IMG/VR virus record: IMGVR_UViG_3300025276_000022
Origin: a virus
DNA: 64,000 nt
Reading direction: 5' to 3' (one strand)
Every line of letters starts with the position of its first letter. Position 1 is the stretch's first letter. Position numbers and translations under genes: made by a program. The notes under the pieces were generated by a model. That model saw only the letters and a program-made list of their open reading frames with translations, ran no database searches and was not told the origin of the DNA. Positions 17,275 through 39,422 of this stretch are shown here, piece by piece.

Positions 17275-20200
17275 ATGACTAGACAAATCATAGGATTGGG
17301 TGCAGCTGCAAACAGTAATAGTGGTGATACACTTAGAGTTGCCGGTGATAAGATCAATGACAATTTTAGTGAGCTATATACTCTACTTCAGTTAACTGAT
17401 TCTGGTGGAATTTCTCTCGAAGATCTTATCAATCTAATCAATTCTTCTGTGAGCGATCAGATAGGAAGCGGAGGTGGCGGTGGCGGAGTAGATTCCGCTA
17501 CTTTAGCAAACATCACAACTTTGATAGAACGATTAGATGTTATTGATACAATCATTGACAGTGATGTAGACGCAAGTGCGACAGCAAGATCTGTCCTGCA
17601 AACATACATCGATGTTAATGGAGTTGACATCACGGTACTTTCTCAAGACATCGTAGATCTTAGAGTAACCTTAGAGAACAGTATTGCATCTGCAAACAGT
17701 ACTCTAACTGCACGTATCGACCAAACCGATTCTTCTCTTACTGTACTTGCATCTGATGTAACTACCTTGCAAGTACAAACGTCAACTGACATTGGTGATG
17801 CAGTAGCAACTGCAACAAGTTCATTGACCGCAATGATTGTCGCAACCGATTCTTCGTTAACCTCTTTAGCATCCGATGTTGTAGAATTAGAAGTACAAAC
17901 CTCAACTGACATTGGTACCGCAGTTGCAGCTGCAACAAGTTCATTAACTGCAATGATTGTTGCTACCGATTCCTCTCTTACTGCCTTAGCATCTGATGTA
18001 ACTACCTTAGAAGTACAAACATCAACGGACATTGGTGATGCAGTATCTACTGCAACAAGTTCATTGACTACACGTATAGATGCAACTGATTCTTCGTTAA
18101 CTGCATTGGCATCCGATGTTACCGCATTGCAAGTACAAACATCAACGGACATTGGTGATGCAGTATCCACTGCAACGTCTGGTCTAACCACTCGTATAGA
18201 CGCTACCGACTCTTCTTTAACCTCCTTAGCATCCGATGTTACCACATTACAGGTACAGGTTGCTACTGACATAGGTTCAGCAGTGTCGACAGCGACAACT
18301 GATTTGACCACTCTTATTAATGCAACAGACTCATCTCTTACCTCACTAGCGTCCGATGTTACTGCGTTAGAGGTACAGGTTGCTACTGACATAGGTTCAG
18401 CAGTGTCGACAGCGACAGACGAACTTACCGTACGTGTCGATGCAACAGACTCATCTCTTACCTCATTAGCATCCGATGTAACAACGTTGGATAATAGAGT
18501 AGACACTGATATCGCATCTGCGGTCGCTACTGCACGGGACGAACTAACCACACTCATCGAAGCTACCGATAGTTCTGTATCTGCATTATCTACCTCCGTA
18601 ACTTCTTTAAGTGCATCTATTGGTGACCTTGATAGTGACCTTCTCGCTGGTATCTTAGATAATGCAAATATAACTGCTGCGAATAGTATTGCTTTACAAT
18701 CACTCACTTCTCGTGTAGATGCGGACAGTAATGGCCTCTCGATCTTATCTCAAGATGTCACTACACTAGAAGCTGAACTAACTTCGGACATAGCGAATGC
18801 AGTAGCAACCGCAACGTCTGGTCTAACCACTCGTATAGATGCAACTGACTCATCTCTTACCTCATTGGCATCCGATGTGACCGCATTGGAAGTCCAAACG
18901 GCAACAGATATCGGTACCGCAGTAGCAGCCGCAACAAGTTCATTAACCACTCTTATCAATGCAACTGACTCATCTGTAAGTGTATTAAGTGAATCCATAA
19001 CATCATTGAACGCATCTCTCGGTGGCATTGATAGTGACTTATTATCAGACATCTTCGACAACGCTGGTGCAGTTGCGGCAAACTCTGGGGCGATCTCAAC
19101 ACTGACCACTCGTGTAGATGCAGATAGTGCCGGTCTCTCGATCTTATCTCAAGACGTAACCAACCTATCCGCTGAACTAGACGTGATTGACTCAGATCTA
19201 CGTTCACAACTATCTGCTGGTGCGATTGCACGTGAGGCATTAACTACTAGAATTAATGCGACAGATAGTGATCTATTAATTGAGGCTGGTAAAGTAACAA
19301 ACTTAGGTGTTACTTTAGGACAAATCGATTCGGATCTAGGTATTAGAATTGATGCGGAAACAACAGCACGTCAAGAACTAGTTACTCGTATTACCCAAGA
19401 CAGTGCCGCACTCTCAATCTTATCTCAAGACGTTACAGACTTAGGAGTCAATCTAAATCAAATAGATTCTGACTTAGGTGTCCGTATTGATGCAGAAGGT
19501 ACTGCTCGACAATCACTAGAGACTAGAATTGACCAAGACAGTGCATCACTTTCTATTGTATCTCAAGACGTTACAGACTTAGGTGCAACATTAGATCAAA
19601 TAGATTCTGATTTAGGTGTACGTATTGATGCAGAAGCTACTGCTCGAAGTGAACTAGTTTCACGTATAGATCAAGACAGTGATACCTTGACGTTACTTTC
19701 GGCCGATGTTACACGATTAGAAGTAGATCTAAACTCTATCAATGATAGTGCCCTTGCTGCAGGGATTCTCGCCAACGGACTTGCTTTAGACAGCATGTCG
19801 ACACAGATCCTCCAAACTGACAGCGACTTACAAATAATCTCTTCACGTGTAGTAGAACTAGATGCCGCACTACAAGAAGGTATTGATTCTGACTTGGTAG
19901 TGTCAATCCTATCTAACACAACCAGCGACCTCTATGCACTGGTAGGTAAGAACTCCGATGAATTGTTTGCTCTTGCAGGCGATGTATCAACATTAACTCA
20001 ATCAGTATCCAACAAGATTGACTCTGCAACTTTGATCACTGCGACAAGTGCAGTGGAAGACGCATTACGATCTGAGATCCGAAGTGATTCAGATATAACA
20101 TCAATTGTTGACTCTAAGATTACTACGTTCGATCAATCATTGGATCGTGTCGATAGTGATGGTCTCCTTTCAGCCGTCAATGGTGTGAGAGATGAACTAC

Positions 20201-21207
20201 GTGGCGAGATGTTAGATTCCGCTGGTGCTCTTTCGATTACAAATTCACGACTGACGGGATTTAGAACTGAGATCGGTCTAGGTGAAGGAAGTGACATCAC
20301 GACCCTTTTGAATGAGGCCGAAGACGGTATTAGATCAGACATTAAATCAGACTCCGATATATTGTCTATTACTAATACAAGACTAACTGGATTTAGGACT
20401 GAACTTGGTCTTGGTAGTGACTCAAGTGTAAGTAGTTTAATCAATGATGTTAAAGACGATGTCTCTGCTTTAGTTATTCTTGATAGCGCTGAGTCATTAT
20501 TGATCACCAACTCACGATTAACAAGTTTCAGAACTGAACTTGGTCTAGGTGAAGGCAGTGACATCACGACCCTTTTGAATGATGTAGAAGAAGGTATACG
20601 ATCAGACATTAAATCAGATTCGGATATACTGTCTATTACTAATTCGAGACTAACTGGATTTAGGACTGAACTTGGTCTTGGTAGTGACTCAAGTGTAAGT
20701 AGTTTAATCAATGATGTTCAAGGTGGGATCGAGGCTTTAATTATTCTTGATAGCGCAGGCATTGCAACCATTGCAAACCAAGCAGTTACTACATTCAAGA
20801 CAGGTTTATTCGGTGATGAATACGATTCAGAGGGTGAATTCGCAATCGCTCAACAAGGTCTTATACAACAGTCAACGGCAAATAGTGATGGTCTGGCCTC
20901 AGTTAATCAGAAACATTTTGTTTCACTGGACAACAACAATCACTTCGCAGGATTCGAACTGAACAATAATGGGGTCACCTCAAGTTTCATATTAACAGCA
21001 GACAAGTTCAAAGTTGTAAATGGATCTAGTAACGTCTCACCATTCGAAGTTGATAATGGTGTTGTGAAACTATCAAATGCGACAGTTACCGGACAACTAG
21101 ATATACTTAATGCTGATGCCGGTGGTGCTATGTCTATTACCAATCAGACGATTACTATTACCGATGCCGGTAACAATCCGCGTGTCAGATTTGGTAAGTT
21201 ATCATAA
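17275..21207 (+). CDS. long coiled-coil fibre: gp9/gp10-type N-terminal anchor, 40-aa repeats, lambda-J/DUF1983-like C-terminus
   Basis: MTRQ.I.LG.AAN..SGDTLR.AG.KIN.NF.ELY N-terminus; 120-nt tandem repeats; F.LTADKFKVV...PFEV.NG.V.L..A...RVRFGKL end. Confidence 0.75.
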   Translation: MTRQIIGLGAAANSNSGDTLRVAGDKINDNFSELYTLLQLTDSGGISLEDLINLINSSVSDQIGSGGGGGGVDSATLANITTLIERLDVIDTIIDSDVDASATARSVLQTYIDVNGVDITVLSQDIVDLRVTLENSIASANSTLTARIDQTDSSLTVLASDVTTLQVQTSTDIGDAVATATSSLTAMIVATDSSLTSLASDVVELEVQTSTDIGTAVAAATSSLTAMIVATDSSLTALASDVTTLEVQTSTDIGDAVSTATSSLTTRIDATDSSLTALASDVTALQVQTSTDIGDAVSTATSGLTTRIDATDSSLTSLASDVTTLQVQVATDIGSAVSTATTDLTTLINATDSSLTSLASDVTALEVQVATDIGSAVSTATDELTVRVDATDSSLTSLASDVTTLDNRVDTDIASAVATARDELTTLIEATDSSVSALSTSVTSLSASIGDLDSDLLAGILDNANITAANSIALQSLTSRVDADSNGLSILSQDVTTLEAELTSDIANAVATATSGLTTRIDATDSSLTSLASDVTALEVQTATDIGTAVAAATSSLTTLINATDSSVSVLSESITSLNASLGGIDSDLLSDIFDNAGAVAANSGAISTLTTRVDADSAGLSILSQDVTNLSAELDVIDSDLRSQLSAGAIAREALTTRINATDSDLLIEAGKVTNLGVTLGQIDSDLGIRIDAETTARQELVTRITQDSAALSILSQDVTDLGVNLNQIDSDLGVRIDAEGTARQSLETRIDQDSASLSIVSQDVTDLGATLDQIDSDLGVRIDAEATARSELVSRIDQDSDTLTLLSADVTRLEVDLNSINDSALAAGILANGLALDSMSTQILQTDSDLQIISSRVVELDAALQEGIDSDLVVSILSNTTSDLYALVGKNSDELFALAGDVSTLTQSVSNKIDSATLITATSAVEDALRSEIRSDSDITSIVDSKITTFDQSLDRVDSDGLLSAVNGVRDELRGEMLDSAGALSITNSRLTGFRTEIGLGEGSDITTLLNEAEDGIRSDIKSDSDILSITNTRLTGFRTELGLGSDSSVSSLINDVKDDVSALVILDSAESLLITNSRLTSFRTELGLGEGSDITTLLNDVEEGIRSDIKSDSDILSITNSRLTGFRTELGLGSDSSVSSLINDVQGGIEALIILDSAGIATIANQAVTTFKTGLFGDEYDSEGEFAIAQQGLIQQSTANSDGLASVNQKHFVSLDNNNHFAGFELNNNGVTSSFILTADKFKVVNGSSNVSPFEVDNGVVKLSNATVTGQLDILNADAGGAMSITNQTITITDAGNNPRVRFGKLS
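17700..18600 (+). repeat. 120-nt (40-aa) tandem coding repeats
   Basis: TDSSLTxLASDVTxLxVQxxTDIGxAVxxATxxLTxxIxA about 7 times, with further degenerate copies to ~19750. Confidence 0.9.
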
Positions 21208-21224: not shown

Positions 21225-21539
21225 ATGTCTTATTATGGAATGGAAATTATTAGTCCAGACAGTGACGGCAATGGTAATTCGATTGCGTCATCGATAGTCT
21301 TCTCGGATTCTATAAGAACCTCCAACATACAGGTTTATACAACATTAAACATAGCTAGGAATGCGAGTGAATTCATCACTTGTCTGAACGCAAATGATAC
21401 TTCAAAAATATTGATAACCTTTGAGACTGCTCGAGGGTTCTACGTTAGCAATAAGACATCTACGGGATTCACGGTAACTAATGGAAATCAGATGTTGCCC
21501 AGCACTACTGGCACAGTAATAGCATTGAGGGTTGGATAA
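21225..21539 (+). CDS. small fibre-associated protein (MSYYG type)
   Basis: AAGGAG SD; positional paralogue of 33927-34208. Confidence 0.65.
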   Translation: MSYYGMEIISPDSDGNGNSIASSIVFSDSIRTSNIQVYTTLNIARNASEFITCLNANDTSKILITFETARGFYVSNKTSTGFTVTNGNQMLPSTTGTVIALRVG

Positions 21540-24500
21540 TGTCCTACGGACTACAGATTACAGGAAACGATGCCGGAGGAAATTTCACGGTTGCGGATAC
21601 TGATTTAAGTATGGTCAACCTGATAGTTACCAACTCCGGTAGAGGTTCGTCTTTTACATTAGAGGGTGGTATCCAGCCCGGAGATTACATATTTGTAAAA
21701 AGACCTACCGCTCCAAATGAAGCCTACTTCACACCAGTAACGGTTGAGGTAGATGCAAGTTTTGGAATATCCCTTACGACTAGCGTGACCTTCGATAGAC
21801 CTATGGTGTATAGTATTGAATATGGTCTAGGTGGAGAGGTATCTTTTATTGGTTCTGCATGGAAGTGGATTACTGGTAACAGTATCTATGGTCAACGACA
21901 GTTCTACCAGTACTCTGGATTCGAAGTCGAGATGGATTATTTCGTGGTACGAAAAGCATCTACTATTGAGAGTCAGGGACTCAGTACATCTGACGGTTAT
22001 GGGTTTCAACTATTAACAGAGGCCGGTGAAATAGCATTGGACTCCAGAAATTTTACGTCGAACCAAACGTTCTACATCGAAAACTACTTGCCTCCAGCAG
22101 ATAACTTTCGTGTTCTTGACGGTGCATCCTCATCATTGGCCTATAGTTCCGGTAGTTATGTCAATCTAGAATGGTCTAGAAAACAAGCTTCCGTTGGATC
22201 TCCGAGTATGATGGATGCGAATTCGATATCCGGCATATACATTACGGACACATATGCATACACTATAGACGGAGATGCTACTGGTATAGGGTCGGGTGGT
22301 GAACCTACGCTCCAGATATACTCAAGTCATAATGCTATCTTTGCAGCTAAACTAGGAGTAGGTAGTGCACCCCCAACGGATGGAGGTGACGGTGATGATG
22401 TAGACGGGCCGCCTACTGAACCAGATGCTATCACGGGTACTCTAAACTACCAGTCAGGTAGTAGTCTAACAGAAGGCGACACAATATCATTTGACGTAAC
22501 AACTTCTGAAGTAGGTAGCTACCACACACGTGTGTTTAGGTTGTCAGGTTCGGACGGTGGTTCTGGAAAAGACTTTGTCTCTGTTACACATCCATTCACG
22601 TCTACCTCAGAAACAGTCACGTTGAATACGTATGATACGAACTCTGCATCACAAACATTCGATAAGACCTTCAGTCAAGCATACACAGGTACATACACGA
22701 GAGATCGTACCTCATCATATGCTAGAGGCGTAGACTCTTCGTATACTCGCGACTTCGTAGGTGACTTCATTGGGAACTATTCTAGGCCTCACGTTTTTAC
22801 AGGCGACTTCGTAGGTGACTACATTGGCCAGGTCGACTATACTAGAGACTTCACTAGAGGTTCTACATTCACCAGAAACTATTTGCGCACTAGTACTCGT
22901 ACGTCTTCAAGAACAGACCTTTACACCAGGCCTTCGAGTTACCTTGGGAATTATGAAAGAACTGCTACCCCAACCTCTACACGCACAATCACTACAGGTG
23001 GTAGCTTTTCTAGAGACTTCACTAGAGTTTCCACGTATAGTAGAACCTCTACGACAAGTATGGTTTTGGGTGTCGAGAATGGCCAAGTAATCACTATACC
23101 AACCCCGTTTGTTTCATATTACACTAGGACACGAAACTCTTCCTTCGCAGGAAACTACACTAGAAGTAGTGCCGGTTCATTATCATATCTCGGCGAGTAC
23201 GCCAGAACAAGTACCAGAACAAGGTATTCAACATACTCAGATACGTACAGTAGAGCTAGATACAGTATATACACTAGAGATAGAGTCGTTAATAGTACTC
23301 GTATTTTAGAATTTGCTGGAAATTACACTCGAGGCTTTGTAGGGGACTATGCCAGAACCATAACTTCAACGCGTACCGTAGGGATAAGTTACGAAGGTAA
23401 CTATGCTGGTGCCGGGGCAGCTTTCTATATTATGTCTAACGGAGAAGCTAGGGTATCTTCCCACTTGTACACTCGTGTCAGTACCGCAAGTTATCTAGGT
23501 AACTATACACGTGACTATGTATCGGGTGCGGTTAGGACAGAGAACTATACTAGAACCTCTACACGCACTTTATCCTATAGCCGAACGAGAACAACGGACT
23601 ATGTCGGTAACTATGCTAACACCTACGCTCGTACCCGAACCGCAAGTTATACAGGTAACTATACTCGTACTGGATATTATGCTAATGCATACACTCGTAG
23701 TTACACTGCAAATACTCCATATGCCCGAGCCTTTACTAGAACTACGTCGGGATCCTTTAGTGGAACCTCTTACAATAGATCCTTCTACTATGCAAGAACC
23801 TTTGTAGGTAACTACTCACGTGCTTTAGCGTATACTAGAACCACGAGTGCTTTTACTTATTCCGGTTCACCAAACCAACATTATTGGTTAGAATCACCAG
23901 ACTCAGAACCGGGCGGAGGAGGTGAATCTTATGGACTTATACTTACTGAGGTTGATGTATTTACTGGCGGCGCATTAGTCGCTTCAACGGTGTCTACCCA
24001 GTATACCAATGTTAGTTACATACAAAATATAAACGGAACTTACTGGCACAAAGGGCCATTGCAGAATACTATTGGATCTAACAAATACTATTCTCTCGCA
24101 TTAAGTTCTTCTGCAATTGCCCCATCAAATACAACAACGAGCTATACCAGAACCGCAGTCTATACACGAAATCGGGCAGTTGGGTACGCTAGGATAGTTG
24201 GTTACTCGTTAGTTCGTACCGTAAGTTACACAGGTAACTATACACGTAACTACGTATCGGGTACAGTTAGGACAGAGAGCTATAGTAGAAACTTTACTAG
24301 AACCCTCGACTATACTAGAGCTAGTGCTGCAAGTTACACGGGTAACTATACACGTAACTACGCTGGTAATTATGTAGGCAACTTCGCTGGTAACTATACT
24401 AGAGACGGATTTTATACTGGGGATTATACTCGTTCGTATACAGATACTACCACAACCTTTACTGGAAATTACACTCGAAACCGAGCAGCAAGTTACACAG

Positions 24501-25759
24501 GTAACTATACTCGTACTTTTGTTGGTGTTTATGTAGGAAACTTCGTTGGTAACTTTACTAGACCTAGCACTTACTCTAGAACTAGAATTTCTACCTATAC
24601 AAGAGAATCGACCAGAGTCAGTACGTATTCCTCAAGTTACATAGGTAACTATACTCGTCTATTCCCAGGCAATTATGTTGGAGACTATGCTCGTGGATTA
24701 GGTAGCGAATATATTGGAAACTATACAAGAACTCGTATAGCAGGCACTTCTTATACCGGAGACTTTTCGGGTACACGTAATTTAGACTATACTGTTACCT
24801 CTACTAGAATTGCGTATCATACGTTCACTAGTGATTATACAAGAACTATAACCCGAGCCAGTGCATACAGTGGAACAAGAGACGCAGAGGCCTCTTATAT
24901 TGGCAACTATGTCGGAAACTATACCAGAGACAGAGCAAGTACTTTATCTTACAGTAGACCTCTCACCTTTGCAGGCGACTTCGTAGGCGACTATAGTCGT
25001 ACAAGCACTAATAATGCTCTTATTAGAACGTCAACGTACTCACGGGATGTTACATTCACTCGAACTCGTATCGAAGACTTCACAAGGCCTATTATATCAA
25101 CTCGAACCTCTACCGGAACACGCACCAGTTCGTACACAAGAACTGATGGTTCTGAGTATACAAGAGACTTCACTGCTAACTATGTAGGAGATTACATAGG
25201 TAACTACACAAGTTCGTCGACTCGTACACCATCCAATACATCGGAGACAGGTTGGCAGGGAGAGAGGTTTGTTATTGAATTGCGAAGAGGTTCTGATACA
25301 GCATCTATAGCTGCCGCCAGAGGAAGTCTTGCAGTACTAGACTCAAAAGAATTCACTCTTTATGATGATGATCATGGGTTGTTCGTATCTACATCTCCAC
25401 AGGTAATTCATCATACGTCAACAACACATGACGTTACCTTTGATTTCTATACAGAAGGAACTTCATTAGTACCGGCAAGAATCTACCGAGGAAGTTCTAT
25501 AATAGTATCGGACTTCAACCTGTCATCTAATCAGAGAACGACGAAGACTGTGAATGAAGTTCCTCCGGCTGGTTCAAGTTATACCTACAGTCTAAGAGTA
25601 TGGAATGGTAATGCGTGGATAGTGTCGTCATACTACGTAGTGAGTAGAATATCCAATACGGACTATGTACCGCCAACTACGCCAACATATACACCATCAT
25701 ACACTTCTGCTCCAGTATATTACACAAACACTGGCGGCCCTAATAACAACATAAATTAA
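21539..25759 (+). CDS. fibre tip protein: YG(L/F)Q N-domain, split Calx-beta/Ig-like domain, mirror-complementary tetrapeptide hairpin with apical domain
   Basis: MSYGLQI...DGYGFQL..EAGEIALDSR N-domain; EGD...DF...F and E.F.IEL...YDDD halves flank ~860 aa of YxRx/FxGx repeats. Confidence 0.75.
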   Translation: MSYGLQITGNDAGGNFTVADTDLSMVNLIVTNSGRGSSFTLEGGIQPGDYIFVKRPTAPNEAYFTPVTVEVDASFGISLTTSVTFDRPMVYSIEYGLGGEVSFIGSAWKWITGNSIYGQRQFYQYSGFEVEMDYFVVRKASTIESQGLSTSDGYGFQLLTEAGEIALDSRNFTSNQTFYIENYLPPADNFRVLDGASSSLAYSSGSYVNLEWSRKQASVGSPSMMDANSISGIYITDTYAYTIDGDATGIGSGGEPTLQIYSSHNAIFAAKLGVGSAPPTDGGDGDDVDGPPTEPDAITGTLNYQSGSSLTEGDTISFDVTTSEVGSYHTRVFRLSGSDGGSGKDFVSVTHPFTSTSETVTLNTYDTNSASQTFDKTFSQAYTGTYTRDRTSSYARGVDSSYTRDFVGDFIGNYSRPHVFTGDFVGDYIGQVDYTRDFTRGSTFTRNYLRTSTRTSSRTDLYTRPSSYLGNYERTATPTSTRTITTGGSFSRDFTRVSTYSRTSTTSMVLGVENGQVITIPTPFVSYYTRTRNSSFAGNYTRSSAGSLSYLGEYARTSTRTRYSTYSDTYSRARYSIYTRDRVVNSTRILEFAGNYTRGFVGDYARTITSTRTVGISYEGNYAGAGAAFYIMSNGEARVSSHLYTRVSTASYLGNYTRDYVSGAVRTENYTRTSTRTLSYSRTRTTDYVGNYANTYARTRTASYTGNYTRTGYYANAYTRSYTANTPYARAFTRTTSGSFSGTSYNRSFYYARTFVGNYSRALAYTRTTSAFTYSGSPNQHYWLESPDSEPGGGGESYGLILTEVDVFTGGALVASTVSTQYTNVSYIQNINGTYWHKGPLQNTIGSNKYYSLALSSSAIAPSNTTTSYTRTAVYTRNRAVGYARIVGYSLVRTVSYTGNYTRNYVSGTVRTESYSRNFTRTLDYTRASAASYTGNYTRNYAGNYVGNFAGNYTRDGFYTGDYTRSYTDTTTTFTGNYTRNRAASYTGNYTRTFVGVYVGNFVGNFTRPSTYSRTRISTYTRESTRVSTYSSSYIGNYTRLFPGNYVGDYARGLGSEYIGNYTRTRIAGTSYTGDFSGTRNLDYTVTSTRIAYHTFTSDYTRTITRASAYSGTRDAEASYIGNYVGNYTRDRASTLSYSRPLTFAGDFVGDYSRTSTNNALIRTSTYSRDVTFTRTRIEDFTRPIISTRTSTGTRTSSYTRTDGSEYTRDFTANYVGDYIGNYTSSSTRTPSNTSETGWQGERFVIELRRGSDTASIAAARGSLAVLDSKEFTLYDDDHGLFVSTSPQVIHHTSTTHDVTFDFYTEGTSLVPARIYRGSSIIVSDFNLSSNQRTTKTVNEVPPAGSSYTYSLRVWNGNAWIVSSYYVVSRISNTDYVPPTTPTYTPSYTSAPVYYTNTGGPNNNIN

Positions 25760-25822: not shown

Positions 25823-26302
25823 ATGAACTTGAAATTCGTAGTATACGTAAAAATTGAGACTGGTAGAATATCTAGAATATCAATACCACATCACAACATC
25901 GATAAGGCAGGCATCTCTCAAGATGCTACTATGCGTATTATCCATATCTTTGAAGGCGATATTCCGGAAGGGTGTCATGATACAAGATACTTCATGGACT
26001 ATCACTGGTACAATAGTGAGACAGAGTCTTTTGATTTTATAGGATTATCACCTAACAGACACTCCGTATGGAGTTCTACAGATGGATGGTCTTGGGACGC
26101 AGAGGCATTGTTAAAAGACATCGTACTGGAAAGAAACAGATTTTTGTTTTCTTCTGATTGGACTCAGTCATTGGATGCTCCTTTGACCGAAGCAAAACTT
26201 CAAGAATGGAGAGATTATCGACAGGCATTAAGAGACTTGCCGTCAACCATTGGAAATGTAGCATCCGTGTCAGAGGTCATCTGGCCTACTGCACCGAAAT
26301 AG
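25823..26302 (+). CDS. tail fibre assembly chaperone (Tfa/Phage_tail_APC-like)
   Basis: RN..L..SDWTQ..DAPL......W..YRQALRDLP.......V.WP..P. Confidence 0.85.
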   Translation: MNLKFVVYVKIETGRISRISIPHHNIDKAGISQDATMRIIHIFEGDIPEGCHDTRYFMDYHWYNSETESFDFIGLSPNRHSVWSSTDGWSWDAEALLKDIVLERNRFLFSSDWTQSLDAPLTEAKLQEWRDYRQALRDLPSTIGNVASVSEVIWPTAPK

Positions 26303-32617: not shown

Positions 32618-32850
32618 TGAAAAGTTATCAGCGAGTCAAGGGGCATAGTAACTTAGTAAGGGATACACGAACTGGCGTTATACTAAATACAAACAAGACA
32701 GAAATAGAAACGTCAAAAAAACTAAAACTAGTACAACAAGAAAAAGACCAACGAATTACACGTCTTACCGACGAAGTGGACACTCTTAGAAATGATGTCC
32801 AACAAATAAAAGAATTGCTTTTTCGTTTAGTAGAGGATAAACATGAGTAA
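32617..32850 (+). CDS. small conserved T4-like protein following DUF4815 gene
   Basis: VKGH.NLVRD..TG.I.N plus C-terminal coiled coil. Confidence 0.75.
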   Translation: MKSYQRVKGHSNLVRDTRTGVILNTNKTEIETSKKLKLVQQEKDQRITRLTDEVDTLRNDVQQIKELLFRLVEDKHE

Positions 32851-33919
32851 CACTATACAATCAGTCCATCTCGCAGACAACATCAACGCGGCCTTTGATA
32901 AGATCAATGAGAACTTTGAACTCGTCGCAACGGGTGTGTTTGGTGGGACGGTGGACTTTACAGATGTTGATGCTGGGATCGCAGCAAATGCTTCTGCATT
33001 ATCTTCCCTTACCACTAGTATCACTAACATTGATGGCACTTTAACTATACTGGCATCGGATGTCACATCTCTATCGACATCACTGACCGACACTCAAGCA
33101 GGCATTACCGCAAATTCTACTGCGATGGCATCGCTTACTAGTAGTATCACACAGACAGAAAATTCACTCGTTATACTTGCGCAAGACATAGTAGACTTAG
33201 AAACTAATTTTACTGGCAACATAACCATAGACTCAGATTTGGTAGTTTCTGTACTTGCAAATAGCACCGCATTCTCTGGATTGGAGTCTTCGATTACGGT
33301 CGTCGATGGTAGAGTTACTGCTCAATCTTCGGACATTACTGAGTTGTCTAATGAGATTTCCATTGTAGATTCCGACAATAAAGTTTTGATCGCAGCGGAA
33401 GGTAACGCACGTTCAGCACTAACCTCTTTAGTGTCCACTAATGGAAATAATATATCCACGATTCAGGGAAGTATTACTGCCCTCACAGGTAAAATAGACA
33501 CAGTAGACTCAGATGGTAACCCCACCACTTTCGTTGCACTAGCAACAGAGTCACTACAGGCGGAAGTCTCGCGAGTAGAAGGATTGATAACAACAAATTC
33601 TACTTGGGGTATAGACCTAGTTGCTGGTACCGAAGCCAATCCACATATTGCTGGTATCAAGTTCGGTAATGACGGTGCAACCGCAGATTTCGCATTGACC
33701 GCAGACACATTCAAGATTATCAATGCTTCTAATAACGAAATTCAACCATTCACTATTTCTGGTAATGAAATACAATTGTCAAATGCGACAGTTACAGGGA
33801 ATCTAAATATAGGTTCAAACTTGAGTGGTGCGCGTACCGTAATTACAGACGATGTCACTAAGGTATTTGACGCGAATAATCAACTACGTGTTGCACTAGG
33901 TAATCTAACCGGAATATAG
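32843..33919 (+). CDS. short coiled-coil fibre with lambda-J/DUF1983-like C-terminus (paralogue of 17275-21207)
   Basis: KINENF anchor motif; IAGIKFGNDG...FALTADTFKI...PFTI.G..I.LSNATVTG.L.I...LRVALGNL. Confidence 0.75.
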   Translation: MSNTIQSVHLADNINAAFDKINENFELVATGVFGGTVDFTDVDAGIAANASALSSLTTSITNIDGTLTILASDVTSLSTSLTDTQAGITANSTAMASLTSSITQTENSLVILAQDIVDLETNFTGNITIDSDLVVSVLANSTAFSGLESSITVVDGRVTAQSSDITELSNEISIVDSDNKVLIAAEGNARSALTSLVSTNGNNISTIQGSITALTGKIDTVDSDGNPTTFVALATESLQAEVSRVEGLITTNSTWGIDLVAGTEANPHIAGIKFGNDGATADFALTADTFKIINASNNEIQPFTISGNEIQLSNATVTGNLNIGSNLSGARTVITDDVTKVFDANNQLRVALGNLTGI

Positions 33920-33926
33920 GTGTGTT

Positions 33927-34208
33927 ATGAGTTACGGACTATACATTTCTGATGGTGTTAATGGAGCAGTTATTACAAACTCCAATAATATTTTTAATGA
34001 GGAAATATACCAGTCTCAGGCTGGAACTGTTACAGGTAATAGCACCCTTGATTTGAATATAGAAGATGTTGGTAATCCGGCATTAATATCTATAGAATTA
34101 ACAACAAACAATAGTGTAGAATTCTCGACTTCCGGAAATACATTATCGTTACAGAACCCTCTATCTGGGGACTACGCATTCAATTTAAAAGTTTTTAGGT
34201 TCCAATAA
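33927..34208 (+). CDS. small fibre-associated protein (MSYG type)
   Basis: MSYGLYISDG; same position as 21225-21539 in the paralogous module. Confidence 0.65.
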   Translation: MSYGLYISDGVNGAVITNSNNIFNEEIYQSQAGTVTGNSTLDLNIEDVGNPALISIELTTNNSVEFSTSGNTLSLQNPLSGDYAFNLKVFRFQ

Positions 34209-34981
34209 TGTCAGATGATTATGGGTTGGTTGTAAAAAACAATAATGGCGGTGTCATGTTTGATTCTCGTAAGGGAATGAGCAGTTACGTCGTAAGAGAA
34301 ATCGGGACAGGAGTTGAAACTTCATTCACCTTAAACGACGGTGATATGGTATTTGCTAAACGACCATCAAGCACTTCTAATAATTGGTGGACGGATAAGA
34401 TAATATTTGGAAGTAGTACCCTCGGCCCACTGGGCCCACCGGAAAACCCTAGGTCATATGGATTCTATGCATTCACAGATTTATCGTCAGGCGTATCGGC
34501 AGAAGTCAACCCAGTCGTAATGGATTACTTTGTTGTGACACATGCAAAGAACATAGATGTTAGTTCCGAAGACTATGGTTTGATAGTAAAAAATAGTGAT
34601 GGTACTCTTCAATTTGACAGTCGTTCGATAAAGAACGGTCAGCACTTTTTGATCACAGACTACTATCCACCTAGAACTTTTGACGGTGACCCATATAGTG
34701 CACCAGTAGGTGGACTAGGAGATATGGATGGTTACTGGTCGATGAATTGGACGACGGGACTTGATATTGCAAATGATGTTGCAGCAATATCAGTACGTGG
34801 ACTGAAATGGATAGGTGTAAGTTCCAGTGCAGGAGCAACAGGGCCCGTGATCGAAGCATTCTTTGATGTTGGTGGTGAAGAAGGTGGATTTGATGGTGGA
34901 GAGGGTGGTGGCTCAACAGTTTCTACAAGAACGTACGAAAACCGAATAAACGGTATGATTCTGGGTGCAGAACTAATTTAA
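34208..34981 (+). CDS. fibre-tip-associated protein, paralogue of N-domain of 21539-25759
   Basis: YGL.VKN..G...FDSR twice; shares GD..F.KRP, MDYFVV and F.I..Y.PP with 21539 protein. Confidence 0.7.
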   Translation: MSDDYGLVVKNNNGGVMFDSRKGMSSYVVREIGTGVETSFTLNDGDMVFAKRPSSTSNNWWTDKIIFGSSTLGPLGPPENPRSYGFYAFTDLSSGVSAEVNPVVMDYFVVTHAKNIDVSSEDYGLIVKNSDGTLQFDSRSIKNGQHFLITDYYPPRTFDGDPYSAPVGGLGDMDGYWSMNWTTGLDIANDVAAISVRGLKWIGVSSSAGATGPVIEAFFDVGGEEGGFDGGEGGGSTVSTRTYENRINGMILGAELI

Positions 34982-34990
34982 GAGGAACAC

Positions 34991-35431
34991 ATGATTTATT
35001 ATATTGCGACCATTAAAAACGGTCAGATACAAACATTGAAATTAGCAAGCGGAGATAACGCAGCTGAAGGAGTCCAAGAAAATGGGACAACTTTAGTACA
35101 CATTGATTTTCCCATTGACAATCGAATAGAATTTATCGAGACTAATTACTGGGACGGTAAGTGGTTACAAAGAGAACGTCCACCAAATGAACACTCTTCG
35201 TGGAATGGGTCATCGTGGGAATGGGATCTAGAATCCTTAATGCCCCAAGTAAGATCTGTCCGTAATGCTATGTTAGTGAGAAGTGACTGGACTCAAATGC
35301 CAGACTCTCCATTATCAGAAGATGACAAGTTAGACTGGCAAATATATCGTGAGGAACTAAGAAGTCTATCTTTTGTCCAAGATAATATATCTAATGTAAA
35401 AGATGTGGACTGGCCAGCAGAACCAAAATAA
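34991..35431 (+). CDS. tail fibre assembly chaperone (Tfa/Phage_tail_APC-like)
   Basis: RN.ML..SDWTQMPDSPL......W..YR..LR.L......V.WP..PK. Confidence 0.85.
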   Translation: MIYYIATIKNGQIQTLKLASGDNAAEGVQENGTTLVHIDFPIDNRIEFIETNYWDGKWLQRERPPNEHSSWNGSSWEWDLESLMPQVRSVRNAMLVRSDWTQMPDSPLSEDDKLDWQIYREELRSLSFVQDNISNVKDVDWPAEPK

Positions 35432-35606: not shown

Positions 35607-38600
35607 ATGTCAGCATCTAGTATACCTCTAAAAATTAAGAATAGCGATGGTGACCTACAGGAACTTACCCCAGCAGAAGAGATGTATCTCGCTGTAAAGG
35701 TAGGTGAAGCACTTGCAGAGGCCTCTGCTGGTGATATAGGCGATATCAGTCTCACCAATGGTGATAACATAGGTTCATTCGTAGATTCATTCTATAATGA
35801 AGCATCGGGCACACACCCTATGTCTAACATCACTGGTACTACAGTAACCACTACCTTGAAACAGGTTGGTGGCTCTGCGAGTGAATCTGGTAGCAATTTT
35901 GCCCGTCCTGTCGGTTATTATGCAGATAATGCAAATCCTGGCTTCTACGAAATGGTAGATGCAGATTTGGATAATCTAACAAATCGCGCACTTGTGAATC
36001 TTGAAACCTTAGAACTTCAAGGTGCATTCACACTTTCGTCCACATCGCCTGGCGGTGATTGGGCAAAACATATTGACACAGTATTCTCAGATACTCGTGG
36101 AGACGGAACTTCGATAGACTTCCATATTTGGAAGAAAACCGCACTTGCATCACCCCCAGCTGGTATTGTAACCACTCGGCCAGTTGCAACCGATTATGAT
36201 GGATCCTCAGCATTTAGCGGTCTAAAAGAAATGTCTGACGCAGAGATCAAGTACACTCTCGGTCAACGTGCTAAGTCACTTAGGTCGACAGCAGGAGCCA
36301 TTGGTTCTTATCAACTTCGTTCATCTGTACAAGGCGCTCCAACCTCAGCCGGAACTTGGGTTCCTCGTGGTACTGCCGCGAATACTCAACGTACTATTGT
36401 TGATGGAACTTATTCTCGCACTCGTGCTTCTGCATATGCTCGTACAAGAGTTTCTGCATACAGTCGTAATCGTGTATCAACTTATACTCGCAACAGCGTA
36501 GATACATTTGCACGTACGTTTGCTGGTGAATATACTGGTACATATTCTCGTGAATTTGCCGGTGAATATACACGTGGCTATGCAGGGGATTACACTAGAA
36601 CTCGTCCCTCAACATATACCCGAAATCGATTAACTGCGTTCACTGGTTACTTTGCTGGTACTTACAACCGTGCAAGAGTTTCAGTATACACACGCAATCG
36701 TGTAACACCATTTACCGGAACCTTCTCACGTACTCGTGCATCAGCATACACACGTGGTCGTGTTTCAACTTACGCAGGGACTTACGCAAGAACTCGTACT
36801 TCTGTTTACACAGCGGATTATACTCGTGCCCGTGTATCAACGTACACCGGAACTTACGCAGGAGTTTATTCTCGTAACCGTGTATCTGCATATGCTGGAA
36901 CTTACTCACGTACACGTTCTTCTGCTTATAGTCAACCATATACTCGTACACGTACTTCTGCATACTCTGCGGATTATACTCGTACACGTATAACTAACTA
37001 CACACGTGATCGTGTAACCAACTTTGCTGGCGTTTTCTCTCGTGCTCGTGTTTCTACATATACTCGTAATCGCGTTACAAACTTTGCTGGAAACTTCGTT
37101 GGTAACTATGCTCGTGGATTCGTAGGTAACTATTCTCGTGGATTCGTAGGTAACTACGCTCGTGGATATGCTGGCGACTTCGTCGGTAACTACGCTCGTG
37201 TTTCTACTCGTACATCTACTCGTACTCGTTACTCTGCATACGCTCGTACATCTACTCGTACTCGTTACTCTGCATATGCTCGTGACCGTGTCACTAACTT
37301 TGCTGGTGACTTCGTAGGTAACTACGCAACAACCTTTACTGGCAACTTTGCGGGCAACTATTCAAGAGACCGTGTAACAACCTTTACTGGTGACTTCGTA
37401 GGTAACTACGCAACAACCTTTACTGGCAACTTTGCGGGCAACTATTCAAGAGACCGTGTCACTAACTTTGCTGGCGATTTCGTAGGTAACTATGCAACAA
37501 CCTTTACTGGCAACTTCGCAGGTGATTACGCAAGAACTTCTACTAGAACTTCTACGCGTACACTAGACTATACTCGTTATTTGTACTATACTGGCAACTT
37601 TGCGGGCAACTATTCAAGAGACCGTGCATTCTCATATGTTGGAGATTACTCTAGAGCTCGTGCACAAGGAACTTCGTACACTGGTAACTATGGTCGTACT
37701 AGAACAGGTAGCTACACTGGTAACTATGCACGTACTCGTACTGCTTCTTACCTCGGTAACTATACTGGTAACTTCGCTGGTAACTATATCGGTAACTATA
37801 CACGAAACCTGATCTCAACTCGGACAAGTATTACCCTCGGAGGAACATCATATTATGCTCGATTCGTGTATAATCCATACATGGGAGAACTGGTTCCGGT
37901 TTTCTATACCCGTACTGCAGCGACCGCATATTACGCTGGTAACTTTGTTACTACCATGGCGTATACGACAGACTCCACACGTGCCTACCCGATGGCCTTT
38001 ACTAGGAATCGTGCCGCGAGCTATGTAGGCGACTATGCTCGTGTCCGTGCATTCTCTTATGTTGGAGACTACTCAAGAGCTCGTGCCCACACTCTTTACT
38101 ACACTGGTAACTATGGTCGTACTAGAACAGGTAGCTACACTGGTAACTATGCACGTACAAGTACTCGATCTAGCAATGTTCTCGCATATTACGGTAGAAC
38201 TGGATATTATGCTGGTGACTTTGTTGGTAACTATGGTCGTACTCGCGTAACTAACTATGTTGGTGATTTCACTAGAACTCGTGTAACTAACTATGCTGGA
38301 AATTTCGTTGGTAACTATGGTCGTACTCGTGTAACTAACTATGTTGGCGACTTTGCTAGAACTCGCGTAACTAACTATGCTGGTAACTTTGTCGGTAACT
38401 ATGGTCGTACTCGTGTAACTAACTATGTTGGTGACTTTAGTCGCAACCGTGTAACTAACTTCGCTGGTAACTTCGTCGGTAACTATGCTCGTGCATATGC
38501 TGGTGATTATGTTGGTAACTATGCTCGCGCATATGCTGGCGACTTCGCTGGTAACTATACTGGTGATTACGCTCGTACTTCTACAAGAACTCGTTACTCT

Positions 38601-39422
38601 GCGTATATCCGTACTCGTACGTCGGCATATGTCCGTAACCGTTCTTCTGCGTACGCAAGAGATCGTATAACTAACTTCGCTGGTGACTTTACTGGTAACT
38701 ATGCAAGAACCTTCACTGGTAACTATGCACGTAACTATGCAGGCAACTTCATTGGTGATTTTGTTGGTGATTTCGCTGGTAACTATGTTGGTAACTACAC
38801 TAGACAGTTCGGTGGTAACTATGTCGGTAACTATGCACGTAACTACGTAGGCGAATATGCCGGTACATATAGCCGTGGATTCGCTGGTGAGTACACAGGA
38901 ACTTACACTGGTGTCTACTCGAACACGTTCGGTGGTAACTATGTTGGTAACTATGCACGTAACTTCGCAGGCGAATACACTGGAACTTACTCGAATACTT
39001 TCACTGGTAACTACTCACGTGGTTTCTCTGGTCAGTACACTCGCGACTTCGCTGGTGACTTCGTAGGTAACTATGCAAGAACATTTGCTGGTGAGTACAC
39101 TGGAACGTATGCAAGTGACTTTGTAGGTGACTTCGTAGGTAACTATTCACGTGACTTCGTAGGTAACTACGGTCGAGTTCGTGTATCGGCTTACTCAAGA
39201 CTACGTAACTCAACATACACTGGAATTTACTCTCGTGACCGTGTATCAACCTATGTTGGTGACTTCACAGGTAATTACTCACGTGGATTCACAGGTGATT
39301 ACGCTCGTGACTTCGTAGGTAACTATGCTAGAGCTTTCGTAGGTAACTACACTGGCGCAACAATCAGTGATACATTGGTTAACACACCAGAAAATTATAC
39401 CTTATACGTACGGGTTGCTTAA
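35607..39422 (+). CDS. putative virion protein with ~980-aa mirror-complementary tetrapeptide repeat (predicted giant beta-hairpin)
   Basis: globular N-domain aa 1-268, tetrad repeats aa 269-1251 with central NPYMG turn, short C-terminal strand YTLYVRVA; own late promoter. Confidence 0.8.
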   Translation: MSASSIPLKIKNSDGDLQELTPAEEMYLAVKVGEALAEASAGDIGDISLTNGDNIGSFVDSFYNEASGTHPMSNITGTTVTTTLKQVGGSASESGSNFARPVGYYADNANPGFYEMVDADLDNLTNRALVNLETLELQGAFTLSSTSPGGDWAKHIDTVFSDTRGDGTSIDFHIWKKTALASPPAGIVTTRPVATDYDGSSAFSGLKEMSDAEIKYTLGQRAKSLRSTAGAIGSYQLRSSVQGAPTSAGTWVPRGTAANTQRTIVDGTYSRTRASAYARTRVSAYSRNRVSTYTRNSVDTFARTFAGEYTGTYSREFAGEYTRGYAGDYTRTRPSTYTRNRLTAFTGYFAGTYNRARVSVYTRNRVTPFTGTFSRTRASAYTRGRVSTYAGTYARTRTSVYTADYTRARVSTYTGTYAGVYSRNRVSAYAGTYSRTRSSAYSQPYTRTRTSAYSADYTRTRITNYTRDRVTNFAGVFSRARVSTYTRNRVTNFAGNFVGNYARGFVGNYSRGFVGNYARGYAGDFVGNYARVSTRTSTRTRYSAYARTSTRTRYSAYARDRVTNFAGDFVGNYATTFTGNFAGNYSRDRVTTFTGDFVGNYATTFTGNFAGNYSRDRVTNFAGDFVGNYATTFTGNFAGDYARTSTRTSTRTLDYTRYLYYTGNFAGNYSRDRAFSYVGDYSRARAQGTSYTGNYGRTRTGSYTGNYARTRTASYLGNYTGNFAGNYIGNYTRNLISTRTSITLGGTSYYARFVYNPYMGELVPVFYTRTAATAYYAGNFVTTMAYTTDSTRAYPMAFTRNRAASYVGDYARVRAFSYVGDYSRARAHTLYYTGNYGRTRTGSYTGNYARTSTRSSNVLAYYGRTGYYAGDFVGNYGRTRVTNYVGDFTRTRVTNYAGNFVGNYGRTRVTNYVGDFARTRVTNYAGNFVGNYGRTRVTNYVGDFSRNRVTNFAGNFVGNYARAYAGDYVGNYARAYAGDFAGNYTGDYARTSTRTRYSAYIRTRTSAYVRNRSSAYARDRITNFAGDFTGNYARTFTGNYARNYAGNFIGDFVGDFAGNYVGNYTRQFGGNYVGNYARNYVGEYAGTYSRGFAGEYTGTYTGVYSNTFGGNYVGNYARNFAGEYTGTYSNTFTGNYSRGFSGQYTRDFAGDFVGNYARTFAGEYTGTYASDFVGDFVGNYSRDFVGNYGRVRVSAYSRLRNSTYTGIYSRDRVSTYVGDFTGNYSRGFTGDYARDFVGNYARAFVGNYTGATISDTLVNTPENYTLYVRVA

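What the first reader, a model, noticed from the sequence alone, without database searches (positions are those of the whole stretch)
22658..25230. Second protein uses the same pairing code, inserted into a split Ig-like domain and carrying an apical domain
Seen in sequence: the repeat region of 21539-25759 is also mirror-complementary. Outward from the apex: YTRT:YTRT, LA:AV, YSRA:YTRN, FVGN:RAVG, YART:YARI, FY:VG ... TP:TV ... GY:LD (the same bulge pair as in the other protein), YTGN:SAAS, RTAS:YTGN, RTTD:FAGN, LS:GF, STRT:YTGD, YLGN:RAAS. Near the base: STRT:FVGD, SSRT:FAGD, DL:LT, YTRP:YSRP, YLGN:RAST, FVGD:RTSS, HV:II. The apex is a non-repetitive ~95-aa segment (~23850-24130, HYWLESP...YWHKGP...KYYSL). 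Two unpaired NG-turn loops (LGVENGQVI, YIMSNGEAR) bulge from the N arm. The flanks (LTEGDTISFDV...DF...F...TVTL and GERFVIELRRG...FTLYDDD) look like two halves of one Calx-beta/Ig-like domain, which would independently require the repeat to return to its origin. Inference: the hairpin is a portable stalk that projects a receptor-binding domain away from a fibre tip. The paralogue 34208-34981 has the N-domain but no stalk.
Basis: partly seen in the sequence, partly recalled or inferred. Interest (0 to 1): 0.88.

Follow-up and report, generated by a model that had tools for sequence, protein, structure and literature searches.

The report
Phage fibre protein with giant beta-hairpin stalk
A phage tail-fibre gene encodes a protein whose roughly 860-residue four-residue repeat most likely folds back on itself into one very long hairpin stalk, rooted in a split Ig-like domain and capped by a small fast-evolving domain; no library or paper search made here found this architecture described.

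Summary
Gene 21539-25759 (+) encodes 1406 aa with no Pfam or PHROG family. Residues 375-1235 are a period-4 Tyr/Arg/Gly/Thr repeat.

Evidence that the two halves pair antiparallel:
- An unguided self-antiparallel scan finds one hairpin from aa 372 to 1239. Its unpaired centre is exactly aa 769-868 (z 8.7 against shuffles; the parallel control sits at null).
- In 34 full-length homologues the arm lengths co-vary (r 0.92).
- Three independent homologue pairs carry matched indels of nearly equal length on both arms, one at exactly mirrored distance from the apex (52+52 aa at 244-295 and 243-294).
- AlphaFold2 models the apex as a confident small beta domain flanked by two 22-residue strands.

AlphaFold2 also brings the two flanks together as one Ig-like sandwich. 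Na/Ca-exchanger Calx-beta domains are among the tied best structural matches, but Calx-beta membership is not shown by sequence.

The apex is the most divergent folded part (29% mean identity). Related apical domains sit on stalks with a different base. The gene lies in a conserved tail-fibre module, just upstream of a tail-fibre assembly chaperone.

Receptor binding by the apex, the oligomeric state and the true 3D form of the stalk are inferred, not shown. AlphaFold2 could not model the arms. Earlier scan notes concern this same window only.

The parts
21539..25759 (+). Whole gene, 1406-aa fibre-module protein (P0001)
   Evidence: ORF list and translation. 34 full-length homologues at 32-95% identity. 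No Pfam or PHROG family.
21539..22408 (+). N-terminal domain, aa 1-290, shared with the stalkless paralogue
   Evidence: BLASTP against the 34208-34981 product: 28% identity over aa 3-195, E 3e-9. Mean pairwise identity among homologues 0.41.
22424..22654 (+). N half (about five to six strands) of the split Ig-like domain, aa 296-372
   Evidence: AlphaFold2 pLDDT 73-89. Structural matches span this part plus the C half. Alignment A3.
22661..23842 (+). N arm of the hairpin, aa 375-768, period-4 repeat
23051..23110 (+). First NG-turn segment in the N arm (aa ~505-524), probably a small side hairpin
   Evidence: Sequence. AlphaFold2 puts a turn at aa 514-515, at low confidence.
23387..23458 (+). 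Second NG-turn segment in the N arm (aa ~617-640), left unpaired by the mirror alignment
   Evidence: About 20 residues have no partner in the token alignment. AlphaFold2 puts a turn at aa 632-636, at low confidence.
23843..24142 (+). Apical non-repetitive beta domain, aa 769-868
   Evidence: It is the unpaired centre of the unguided hairpin scan. AlphaFold2 pLDDT 83-95, six strands. Conserved anchors Y774, G811, G839, P862. Lowest identity of the folded parts, 0.29.
24143..25243 (+). C arm of the hairpin, aa 869-1235
25244..25378 (+). C half (two strands) of the split Ig-like domain, aa 1236-1280, ending in a conserved acidic D-N/D-D-x-G motif
   Evidence: Most conserved part, identity 0.61. 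Invariant E1236, G1241, E1242, D1276, D1278, G1280. Structural matches span it together with the N half. Weak support for association with the N half.
25379..25654 (+). C-terminal Ig-like domain, aa 1281-1372, followed by a Pro/Thr/Tyr-rich tail
   Evidence: AlphaFold2 pLDDT 74-86. Structural matches on model residues 991-1087 at Z 6.5-7.0, to GbpA, the SSV19 tail and HAP2.
21225..21539 (+). Small 104-aa protein conserved directly upstream
   Evidence: The same position holds a 99-108-aa gene in loci L002, L004 and L005. No family hit.
25823..26302 (+). Tail-fibre assembly chaperone directly downstream
   Evidence: Pfam Phage_tail_APC, E 7e-17. PHROG tail fiber assembly, E 5e-14. Same position in relatives.
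17275..21207 (+). Upstream 1310-aa fibre shaft protein of the same module
   Evidence: Pfam Phage_Tail_Tip at aa 1198-1272. PHROG tail protein and tail fiber protein.
34208..34981 (+). Stalkless paralogue of the N-domain (module B)
   Evidence: It is followed by a second Phage_tail_APC gene at 34991-35431.
35607..39422 (+). The other hairpin protein (1271 aa), using the same complementarity
   Evidence: Unguided scan: hairpin aa 273-1244, centre 744-775, z 13.5. On a rigid anti-diagonal, Arg never faces Arg (0 of 380 pairs) at two adjacent registers, against 19-20 four residues away.

Best explanation
The protein is a component of a tail-fibre module of a T4-like myovirus.

ARCHITECTURE. The order is: N-terminal domain, N half of an Ig-like beta-sandwich, N arm of about 394 aa, apical beta domain of about 100 aa, C arm of about 367 aa, C half of the same sandwich, a second Ig-like domain.

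STALK. The two arms are extended beta-strands built of four-residue units. Position 1 is aromatic, position 3 is Gly or Arg, and positions 2 and 4 are small or polar. The arms pair antiparallel along their whole length, so the chain runs out to the apex and back. On the aromatic face, Tyr lies opposite Tyr or Arg, Gly opposite Arg, and Arg avoids Arg. The other face is all small residues.

BASE AND APEX. The split sandwich clasps the base of the stalk. The apical domain sits at the far end, up to about 120 nm away if the ribbon is fully extended.

SHOWN. Antiparallel pairing of the arms, the position of the apex, the fibre-module context, and modular reuse of the stalk and apex.

INFERRED. The extended ribbon geometry and its length. 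Trimerisation, by analogy with fibres that need a Tfa-type chaperone. Host recognition by the apex. Attachment to the upstream fibre through the N-domain.
For: PAIRING.
- Mirror code: score 61.5 against 27.5 +/- 5.2, parallel control 29.5.
- Unguided scan: centre exactly 769-868, outermost pair 372/1239, abutting the flanks.
- Homologues: z 3-10 in most.
- Arm lengths: 317-474 and 301-484 aa, r 0.92.
- Matched indels: P0013/P0012 lose 52 aa at 244-295 residues from the apex on the N arm and 52 aa at 243-294 on the C arm. P0031/P0032 lose 38 and 38. P0009/P0011 gain 56 and 54.
- Strand character: long-range even spacing of aromatics.
- AlphaFold2, apex plus arm stubs: mean pLDDT 75, apex 83-95, strands 748-769 and 865-886.

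SPLIT DOMAIN.
- In the model of aa 290-1376, matches of 87-103 aligned residues span residues 7-990: complement C4 MG domain Z 8.8, rmsd 2.6; NCX3 CBD2 Z 7.5, 18% identity; NCX1 CBD1 Z 7.4.
- The halves folded as two chains gave 'weak support': score 0.53, best of 3 controls 0.01. That mark was reached by 58 of 80 solved complexes and 2 of 110 mismatched pairs. At 0.60 or under it was reached by only 7 of those 80 and by both mismatches that passed. The runs agree in at least 74% of contacts and the partner's pLDDT is at least 65.

CONTEXT. A Phage_tail_APC chaperone lies downstream, a Phage_Tail_Tip fibre upstream, and a gp8-like wedge follows. The order is the same in relatives.

APEX. Lowest identity of the folded parts, 0.29 against 0.41-0.61. 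In P0038/P0039 the flanks are found at E 1e-23 to 1e-25, while the apex scores only 13-14 bits.

MODULARITY. The apex profile hits the apical segments of P0045 (28 bits) and P0052 (20 and 19 bits), which have the other base type. Shuffled controls reach at most 5.8 bits.
Against: - AlphaFold2 did not model the arms (pLDDT 22-45). Where it drew strands it folded them locally rather than as one hairpin.
- A test on tetrad phase alone was not significant.
- Six of 34 homologues show no mirror signal with this scoring. Arm boundaries taken from the alignment may be at fault.
- P0001 against P0008 has unequal insertions, +53 on the N arm and +104 on the C arm.
- Co-variation of tetrad types between paired positions is only slightly above expectation.
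Shuffles control for composition but not for choosing the rule after the fact. The homologue indels are the independent evidence.
- No experiment, solved structure or significant fold match bears on the apex: best Z 3.7, and Foldseek against PDB found none.
- Nothing tested here shows binding to a host, trimerisation, or that the ribbon is straight.
Confidence: 0.7

Rival explanations
1. The hairpin stalk is real, but the apex is only a structural cap that nucleates or closes the turn. [quoted passage not shown]
For: Fibres served by Tfa-type chaperones usually bind receptors through their C-terminal part (established knowledge), and here the chaperone gene follows directly. Some homologues add further C-terminal domains: an extra Ig-like PF16403 domain and an apex-like copy at the C-terminus of P0029. 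The 35607-39422 protein has a stalk with only a 32-residue loop at the tip, so a stalk can exist without a tip domain.
Against: The apex is the most divergent folded part. It recurs at the tips of stalks with another base, once in tandem, as expected for an exchangeable functional module. [quoted passage not shown]
Confidence: 0.2
2. The arms pair antiparallel between two chains (a domain-swapped, open form) rather than within one chain. The N arm of one subunit would zip with the C arm of another.
For: Mirror complementarity, arm-length covariation and matched indels are all equally satisfied by intermolecular antiparallel pairing.
Against: AlphaFold2 places the two strands that leave the apex side by side. 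It also assembles the two flank halves of one chain into one domain. The outermost pair abuts both flanks, as expected for a closed hairpin.
Confidence: 0.07
3. The repeat is not a hairpin. It would be either a parallel trimeric fibre shaft that runs one way, or a disordered Tyr/Arg/Gly/Ser-rich low-complexity tether, with the mirror pattern a by-product of duplications.
For: AlphaFold2 gives pLDDT 22-45 on the arms. The composition (T 18%, S 13%, Y 12%, R 11%, G 9%) resembles sticky low-complexity regions. Direct DNA repeats show the region grows by duplication.
Against: Neither form explains matched indels of nearly equal length on both arms, one at exactly mirrored distance, or a hairpin centre falling exactly on the apex. 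Strict period 4 and long-range parity argue against disorder. The parallel control is at null level. There are no inverted DNA repeats, and DNA duplication cannot produce a mirrored protein pattern.
Confidence: 0.03

Closest known systems
Needle and head of the bacteriophage T4 long tail fibre tip (gp37, residues ~811-1026)
   Same: It is a fibre tip in which each chain runs out along an antiparallel beta needle to a receptor-binding head and returns. The needle is six-stranded, made of three chains (PMC9659904, citing Bartual et al. 2010). A dedicated chaperone gene lies next to the fibre gene.
   Different: From my own knowledge, the gp37 needle is tens of residues per strand and is held by His-x-His iron sites. 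Here each arm has 370-390 residues, His is rare (0.6%), and the repeat is a four-residue Tyr/Arg/Gly unit with mirror complementarity. No sequence or fold match to gp37 was seen. Trimer formation was not tested.
Calx-beta domains (CBD1/CBD2 of Na+/Ca2+ exchangers; Pfam PF03160)
   Same: In the model the two flanks together superpose on CBD2 (2lt9, Z 7.5, 96 residues, rmsd 3.5, 18% identity) and CBD1 (3gin, Z 7.4, 96 residues). The last strand ends in a conserved acidic D-N/D-D motif.
   Different: There is no Pfam or PDB sequence match for either half. Other Ig-like folds score as well or better, such as the complement C4 MG domain at Z 8.8. The domain is interrupted by an insertion of about 860 residues between its fifth/sixth and its last two strands.
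T-even gp38-type adhesins (Pfam PF05268)
   Same: The best rows for the apex model in two libraries of predicted structures are gp38-family models. BFVD: E 6e-3, TM 0.34. ESM Atlas cluster: 72 residues, rmsd 3.1, TM 0.36. Both would sit at a fibre tip.
   Different: The scores are weak. There is no match to solved structures and no Pfam hit in any of the 34 apex sequences. This is a lead, not a relationship.
The 35607-39422 protein of the same window and its metagenomic relatives
   Same: Same four-residue repeat, same complementarity (Arg never opposite Arg; Tyr opposite Tyr or Arg; Gly opposite Arg), and the same GY/LD bulge pair. Some relatives carry the same apical domain family.
   Different: The base is an N-domain of about 270 aa plus a C-terminal tail of about 20 aa, not a split Ig-like domain. 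The window's copy has a 32-residue loop at the tip instead of a domain.

Membership tests
Calx-beta domain (PF03160) | Match to the family profile by sequence | tested here: inconclusive
   No hit with E up to 10 for aa 290-375 or aa 1230-1290, and none for the whole protein. A split domain is hard for a profile to score. PDB profile searches with A3 and A4 found no Calx-beta chain.
Calx-beta domain (PF03160) | Seven-strand beta-sandwich of about 100 residues superposable on CBD1/CBD2 | tested here: inconclusive
   2lt9: Z 7.5, 96 aligned. 3gin: Z 7.4, 96 aligned, spanning both halves. These are tied with unrelated Ig-like folds, and Z under 8 is common by chance for this tool.
Calx-beta domain (PF03160) | Acidic Ca2+-binding residues at the distal loops | not tested
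   Invariant E1236, E1242, D1276 and D1278 are present. Their geometry could not be inspected.
Ig-like beta-sandwich formed by two separated segments (split domain) | The N and C segments pack into one sandwich | tested here: met
   In the model only. Single-domain matches of 87-103 residues span model residues 7-990, while the N flank has 79 residues. The halves as separate chains gave weak support, 0.53 against a best control of 0.01.
Fold-back fibre tip of the T4 gp37 type | The chain runs out to a tip domain and returns antiparallel | tested here: met
Fold-back fibre tip of the T4 gp37 type | His-x-His metal sites along the needle; sequence or fold similarity to gp37 | tested here: not met
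   His is 0.6% of the repeat. There are no gp37 family hits and no structural hit.
Fold-back fibre tip of the T4 gp37 type | Homotrimer giving a six-stranded needle | not testable with these tools
AlphaFold2 did not model the arms even as a monomer.
Tail-fibre protein served by a Tfa-type assembly chaperone | Chaperone gene directly downstream, inside a tail or baseplate gene block | tested here: met
   Phage_tail_APC at 25823-26302, E 7e-17. Fibre with Phage_Tail_Tip upstream. gp8-like wedge and DUF4815 downstream. Same order in L002, L004 and L005.
Disordered low-complexity Tyr/Arg-rich region | No fixed periodicity or positional constraint | tested here: not met
   Period 4 with long-range parity. 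Mirror-matched indels.

The most novel reading that the evidence does not exclude
The stalk is a new kind of fibrous protein fold. It would be a single chain zipped onto itself for about 370 residue pairs through a readable four-residue complementarity rule (Tyr/Arg ladder on one face, small residues on the other). Evolution lengthens or shortens it by matched insertions and deletions on both arms, and uses it as a portable mast for interchangeable tip domains on phage fibres. If so, it is a natural, sequence-programmable beta-ribbon of 100 nm scale.
Probability: 0.5. Interest if true: 0.9.

Novelty: new variant of a known kind. Interest (0 to 1): 0.78.

Why it matters
Phage fibres decide which bacteria a phage can reach, and most fibre architectures in environmental phages are uncharted. 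This family has no Pfam or PHROG model and no solved relative, yet it is common in metagenomes: 161 proteins at E 0.001 or better among the 8000 candidates scored.

If the reading is right, it is a fibre built on a different principle from the known trimeric shafts. It would be an intrachain beta-zipper whose register can be read from sequence. Its length would be tuned by paired indels, and it would carry exchangeable tip domains.

That would give structural virologists a clear target. It would give protein designers a natural rule set for very long two-stranded beta-ribbons. It would give annotators a way to recognise a large class of 'hypothetical' giant phage proteins, including a 3347-aa one in Phage C48C1.

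Tried and rejected
1. Alignment of the arms on tetrad phase only (aromatic register, no residue types) gave z of 1 or less against token shuffles at three gap penalties. Gaps let shuffled arms re-phase too cheaply, so this statistic cannot see the signal.
2. AlphaFold2 on aa 290-1376 did not give a usable model of the arms: mean pLDDT 41.8, arms 22-45. Only the globular parts were used.
3. Pfam on the flank halves, the apex, the N-domain and the C-terminal domain gave nothing meaningful. Pfam on all 34 apex sequences gave nothing. PDB profile searches with the two flank alignments gave chance-level rows only.
4. The apex fold search found no convincing relative: best Z 3.7 in the wide PDB search, and no row at E 0.001 or better in Foldseek against PDB. 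The language-model atlas scored 0.80 or less, which is chance level. The N-domain gave no usable hit.
5. The search for stalkless relatives using the C-terminal 177 aa among shorter proteins found only three fragments cut at contig ends. No natural unsplit form of the domain was found. This does not show that none exists.
6. The apex profile against 1.84 billion representatives found its own family. It also gave weak multi-stretch hits to tandem fn3/Ig-like proteins, E 3.5e-5 to 8e-4. This hints at an fn3-like C-terminal half and no more.
7. My first reading that P0038/P0039 lack an apical domain was wrong. The token scan mis-set the centre, and the sequences show a divergent domain of about 90 aa.
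8. Tetrad-type covariation between paired positions across homologues was only slightly above expectation: 6 against 3.1, 7 against 5.7, 5 against 4.7.
9. Pfam on large apical inserts of ten other stalk proteins gave nothing.
10. Literature searches for C48C1, tetrapeptide-repeat fibres and fold-back fibres found no description of this family. 'Tentaclins' (PMC10743442) are unrelated.

Full report
WHAT IS THERE

The finding lies inside one gene, 21539-25759 on the + strand, encoding 1406 aa. The gene sits in the tail region of a T4-like myovirus.
- Upstream is a 1310-aa fibre protein with a Phage_Tail_Tip end (17275-21207), then a 104-aa gene.
- Downstream is a tail-fibre assembly chaperone (Phage_tail_APC, E 7e-17, 25823-26302), then a gp8-like baseplate wedge, then a DUF4815 protein.
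- The nearest deposited genome is Phage C48C1, filed under Kyanoviridae. Its DUF4815 protein is 57.7% identical.
- The order 'small protein, this protein, chaperone' recurs in metagenomic relatives (loci L002, L004, L005).
- The protein has no Pfam or PHROG family. It has 34 full-length homologues at 32-95% identity in public metagenomes.

CHECKING THE OBSERVATION

Residues 375-1235 are rich in Thr, Ser, Tyr, Arg and Gly and have a period of four. The autocorrelation of aromatic residues is positive at every even lag and negative at odd lags out to lag 24. Spacings between successive aromatics are even in 52 of 65 and 54 of 60 cases in the two arms, against 16 of 35 in the N-domain. That is the signature of long beta-strands with one aromatic face.

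- The score is 61.5. Token shuffles give 27.5 +/- 5.2 (best of 500: 47.5), and the parallel orientation gives 29.5.
- A scan that is given no arms, only the region 370-1240, finds one nested antiparallel alignment from aa 372 to aa 1239. Its unpaired centre is aa 769-868, exactly the non-repetitive segment (z 8.7).
- The same scan on the 35607-39422 protein gives z 13.5.
- Most homologues give z 3-10, and six give none.

A test on tetrad phase alone failed. The signal therefore lies in which unit types face each other, not merely in the frame shifts.

INDEPENDENT EVIDENCE FROM HOMOLOGUES

This is the strongest part, because it does not depend on any scoring rule.
- Between conserved anchors, N-arm length (317-474) and C-arm length (301-484) correlate at r 0.92.
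- P0012 lacks 52 aa that P0013 has at 244-295 residues before the apex anchor, and 52 aa at 243-294 residues after it.
- P0032 lacks 38 and 38 aa relative to P0031.
- P0011 has +56 and +54 aa relative to P0009.

Matched losses and gains on both arms, exactly mirrored in the first pair, are what a hairpin requires. A one-way fibre or a disordered tether has no reason to show them. One pair, P0001 against P0008, is unequal at +53 and +104. It lies in the zone where the window's N arm carries unpaired segments.

STRUCTURE PREDICTION

AlphaFold2 on aa 290-1376 with the homologue alignment modelled the arms poorly (pLDDT 22-45) and the globular parts well.

A search of that model against 48,161 solved chains gave many single-domain matches of 87-103 aligned residues whose range runs from model residue 7 to 986-990. 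That range is the N flank plus the C flank. The N flank alone has 79 residues, so both halves are in one sandwich in the model. Matches include:
- complement C4 MG domain: Z 8.8, rmsd 2.6.
- NCX3 CBD2: Z 7.5, 18% identity.
- NCX1 CBD1: Z 7.4.

These Z values are in the range the tool calls common. The fold class (Ig-like sandwich) is supported, but the family (Calx-beta) is not.

Folding the two halves as separate chains gave 'weak support'. The score was 0.53 and the best of 3 controls was 0.01. The mark was reached by 58 of 80 solved complexes and 2 of 110 mismatched pairs. At 0.60 or under it was reached by only 7 of those 80 and by both mismatches that passed. The runs agree in at least 74% of contacts, and the partner's pLDDT is at least 65.

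A second AlphaFold2 model, of aa 740-900, is confident for the apex (pLDDT 83-95, six strands). It shows two 22-residue strands, 748-769 and 865-886, leaving the apex. Their ends sum to 1634, which puts Tyr opposite Tyr.

THE PAIRING RULE

In the other protein the arms can be laid against each other rigidly, with no alignment algorithm. At two adjacent registers, Arg faces Arg 0 times in 380 pairs, against 19-20 times four residues away. At those registers Tyr/Phe faces Tyr/Phe 53 times, Gly faces Arg 45 times, and Tyr faces Arg 36-64 times. The window's protein shows the same pattern at the corresponding registers.

So one face of the ribbon would be a ladder of aromatic rungs alternating with 'one Arg plus one small residue' rungs. 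The other face is Thr/Ser/Ala/Val/Asn. Which tetrad is said to face which depends on the register chosen, by about one tetrad. The two first-stage descriptions of the rule differ for that reason.

THE APEX

The apex is present in all 34 homologues, with conserved Tyr, Gly, Gly and Pro anchors.

It is the most divergent folded part. Mean pairwise identity is 0.29, against 0.41 for the N-domain, 0.47 and 0.61 for the flanks, and 0.43 for the C-terminal domain. In P0038/P0039 the flanks are recognised at E 1e-23 to 1e-25, but the apex scores only 13-14 bits.

No solved structure matches it. The best rows in two libraries of predicted structures are gp38-family adhesin models, weakly.

A profile search of 1.84 billion representatives finds the domain essentially only in this family. 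A targeted search finds it elsewhere, with shuffled controls reaching at most 5.8 bits:
- at the tips of stalk proteins with the other base type: P0045 at 28 bits, and P0052 in tandem at 20 and 19 bits;
- in a free-standing 208-aa protein, P0134.

PORTABILITY

Among the more distant hits, many proteins give strong mirror hairpins (z 7-18). Their bases differ, and their centres range from a few residues to globular inserts of about 300 aa.

WHAT IT MOST LIKELY IS AND DOES

It is most likely a fibre-module protein whose repeat forms a very long intrachain antiparallel beta-ribbon stalk. A split Ig-like domain clasps the stalk at its base, and an exchangeable, fast-evolving beta domain caps it.

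By position, divergence and modular reuse, the apex is the best candidate for host contact. The N-domain, shared with the stalkless paralogue at 34208-34981, is the best candidate for attachment to the upstream fibre.

Four things are inferred and untested: a length of about 120 nm (367 paired residues at about 3.3 A each), trimerisation, straightness, and receptor binding.

COMPARISON WITH KNOWN SYSTEMS

The nearest known design is the T4 gp37 tip. It is a six-stranded antiparallel needle of three chains that carries the receptor-binding head (PMC9659904, citing Bartual et al. 2010). The fold-back principle is shared. The length, the repeat, the absence of His-metal sites and the split-domain base are not.

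The literature searches made here found no description of this family.

VERDICT

The structural interpretation is well supported by independent comparative evidence. The Calx-beta label and the receptor-binding role remain open.

Earlier notes of this scan concern the same window only. I found none on other DNA.

Noticed in passing
window 23481-23579 and 24216-24314: A 99-nt direct repeat (80% identity) lies once on each arm. The two copies do not pair with each other in the hairpin alignment; each pairs with a different segment. A second cross-arm direct repeat of 39 nt (82%) lies at 22783-22821 and 24955-24993. There are no inverted DNA repeats. This suggests growth by duplication of stalk segments.
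   Followed up: partly
homologue P0007 against window 21539-22408: P0007 is 89-97% identical to the window's protein in the arms, the N flank and the C-terminal domain (0.82 in the C flank, 0.79 in the apex), but only 51% in the N-domain. This looks like a recombinational swap of the attachment domain at the domain boundary.
   Followed up: no
locus L001 3897-13940 (Phage C48C1, OQ984149): A 3347-aa 'hypothetical protein' has the same N-terminal domain and the same C-terminal ending as the window's 35607-39422 protein, plus a much longer repeat. My scan found only a partial hairpin in it, z 5.6. Its full topology is unresolved.
   Followed up: partly
homologues P0029, P0026 and P0035 (C-termini); fragments P0126-P0128: [quoted passage not shown] In P0029 it is a weak apex-like copy (aa 1392-1467, E 5.8e-5). 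In the fragments P0126-P0128 it is a PF16403 Ig-like domain.
   Followed up: no
protein P0134 (208 aa, metagenomic): A free-standing small protein appears to consist of two apex-like domains joined by an acidic linker (27.8 and 13.2 bits). Its genomic context was not examined.
   Followed up: no
window 17275-21207: The upstream 1310-aa fibre protein is built of many degenerate repeats of about 45 aa rich in Asp, Ser, Thr, Leu and Ala. Its weak hits to helical families suggest a very long coiled coil. Together with the stalk, the fibre could be unusually long.
   Followed up: no
window 32843-35431: A second, short copy of the four-gene fibre module is present: a 358-aa fibre with Phage_Tail_Tip, a 93-aa protein, the 257-aa N-domain paralogue, and a Phage_tail_APC chaperone. 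It lies directly before the other hairpin gene.
   Followed up: partly
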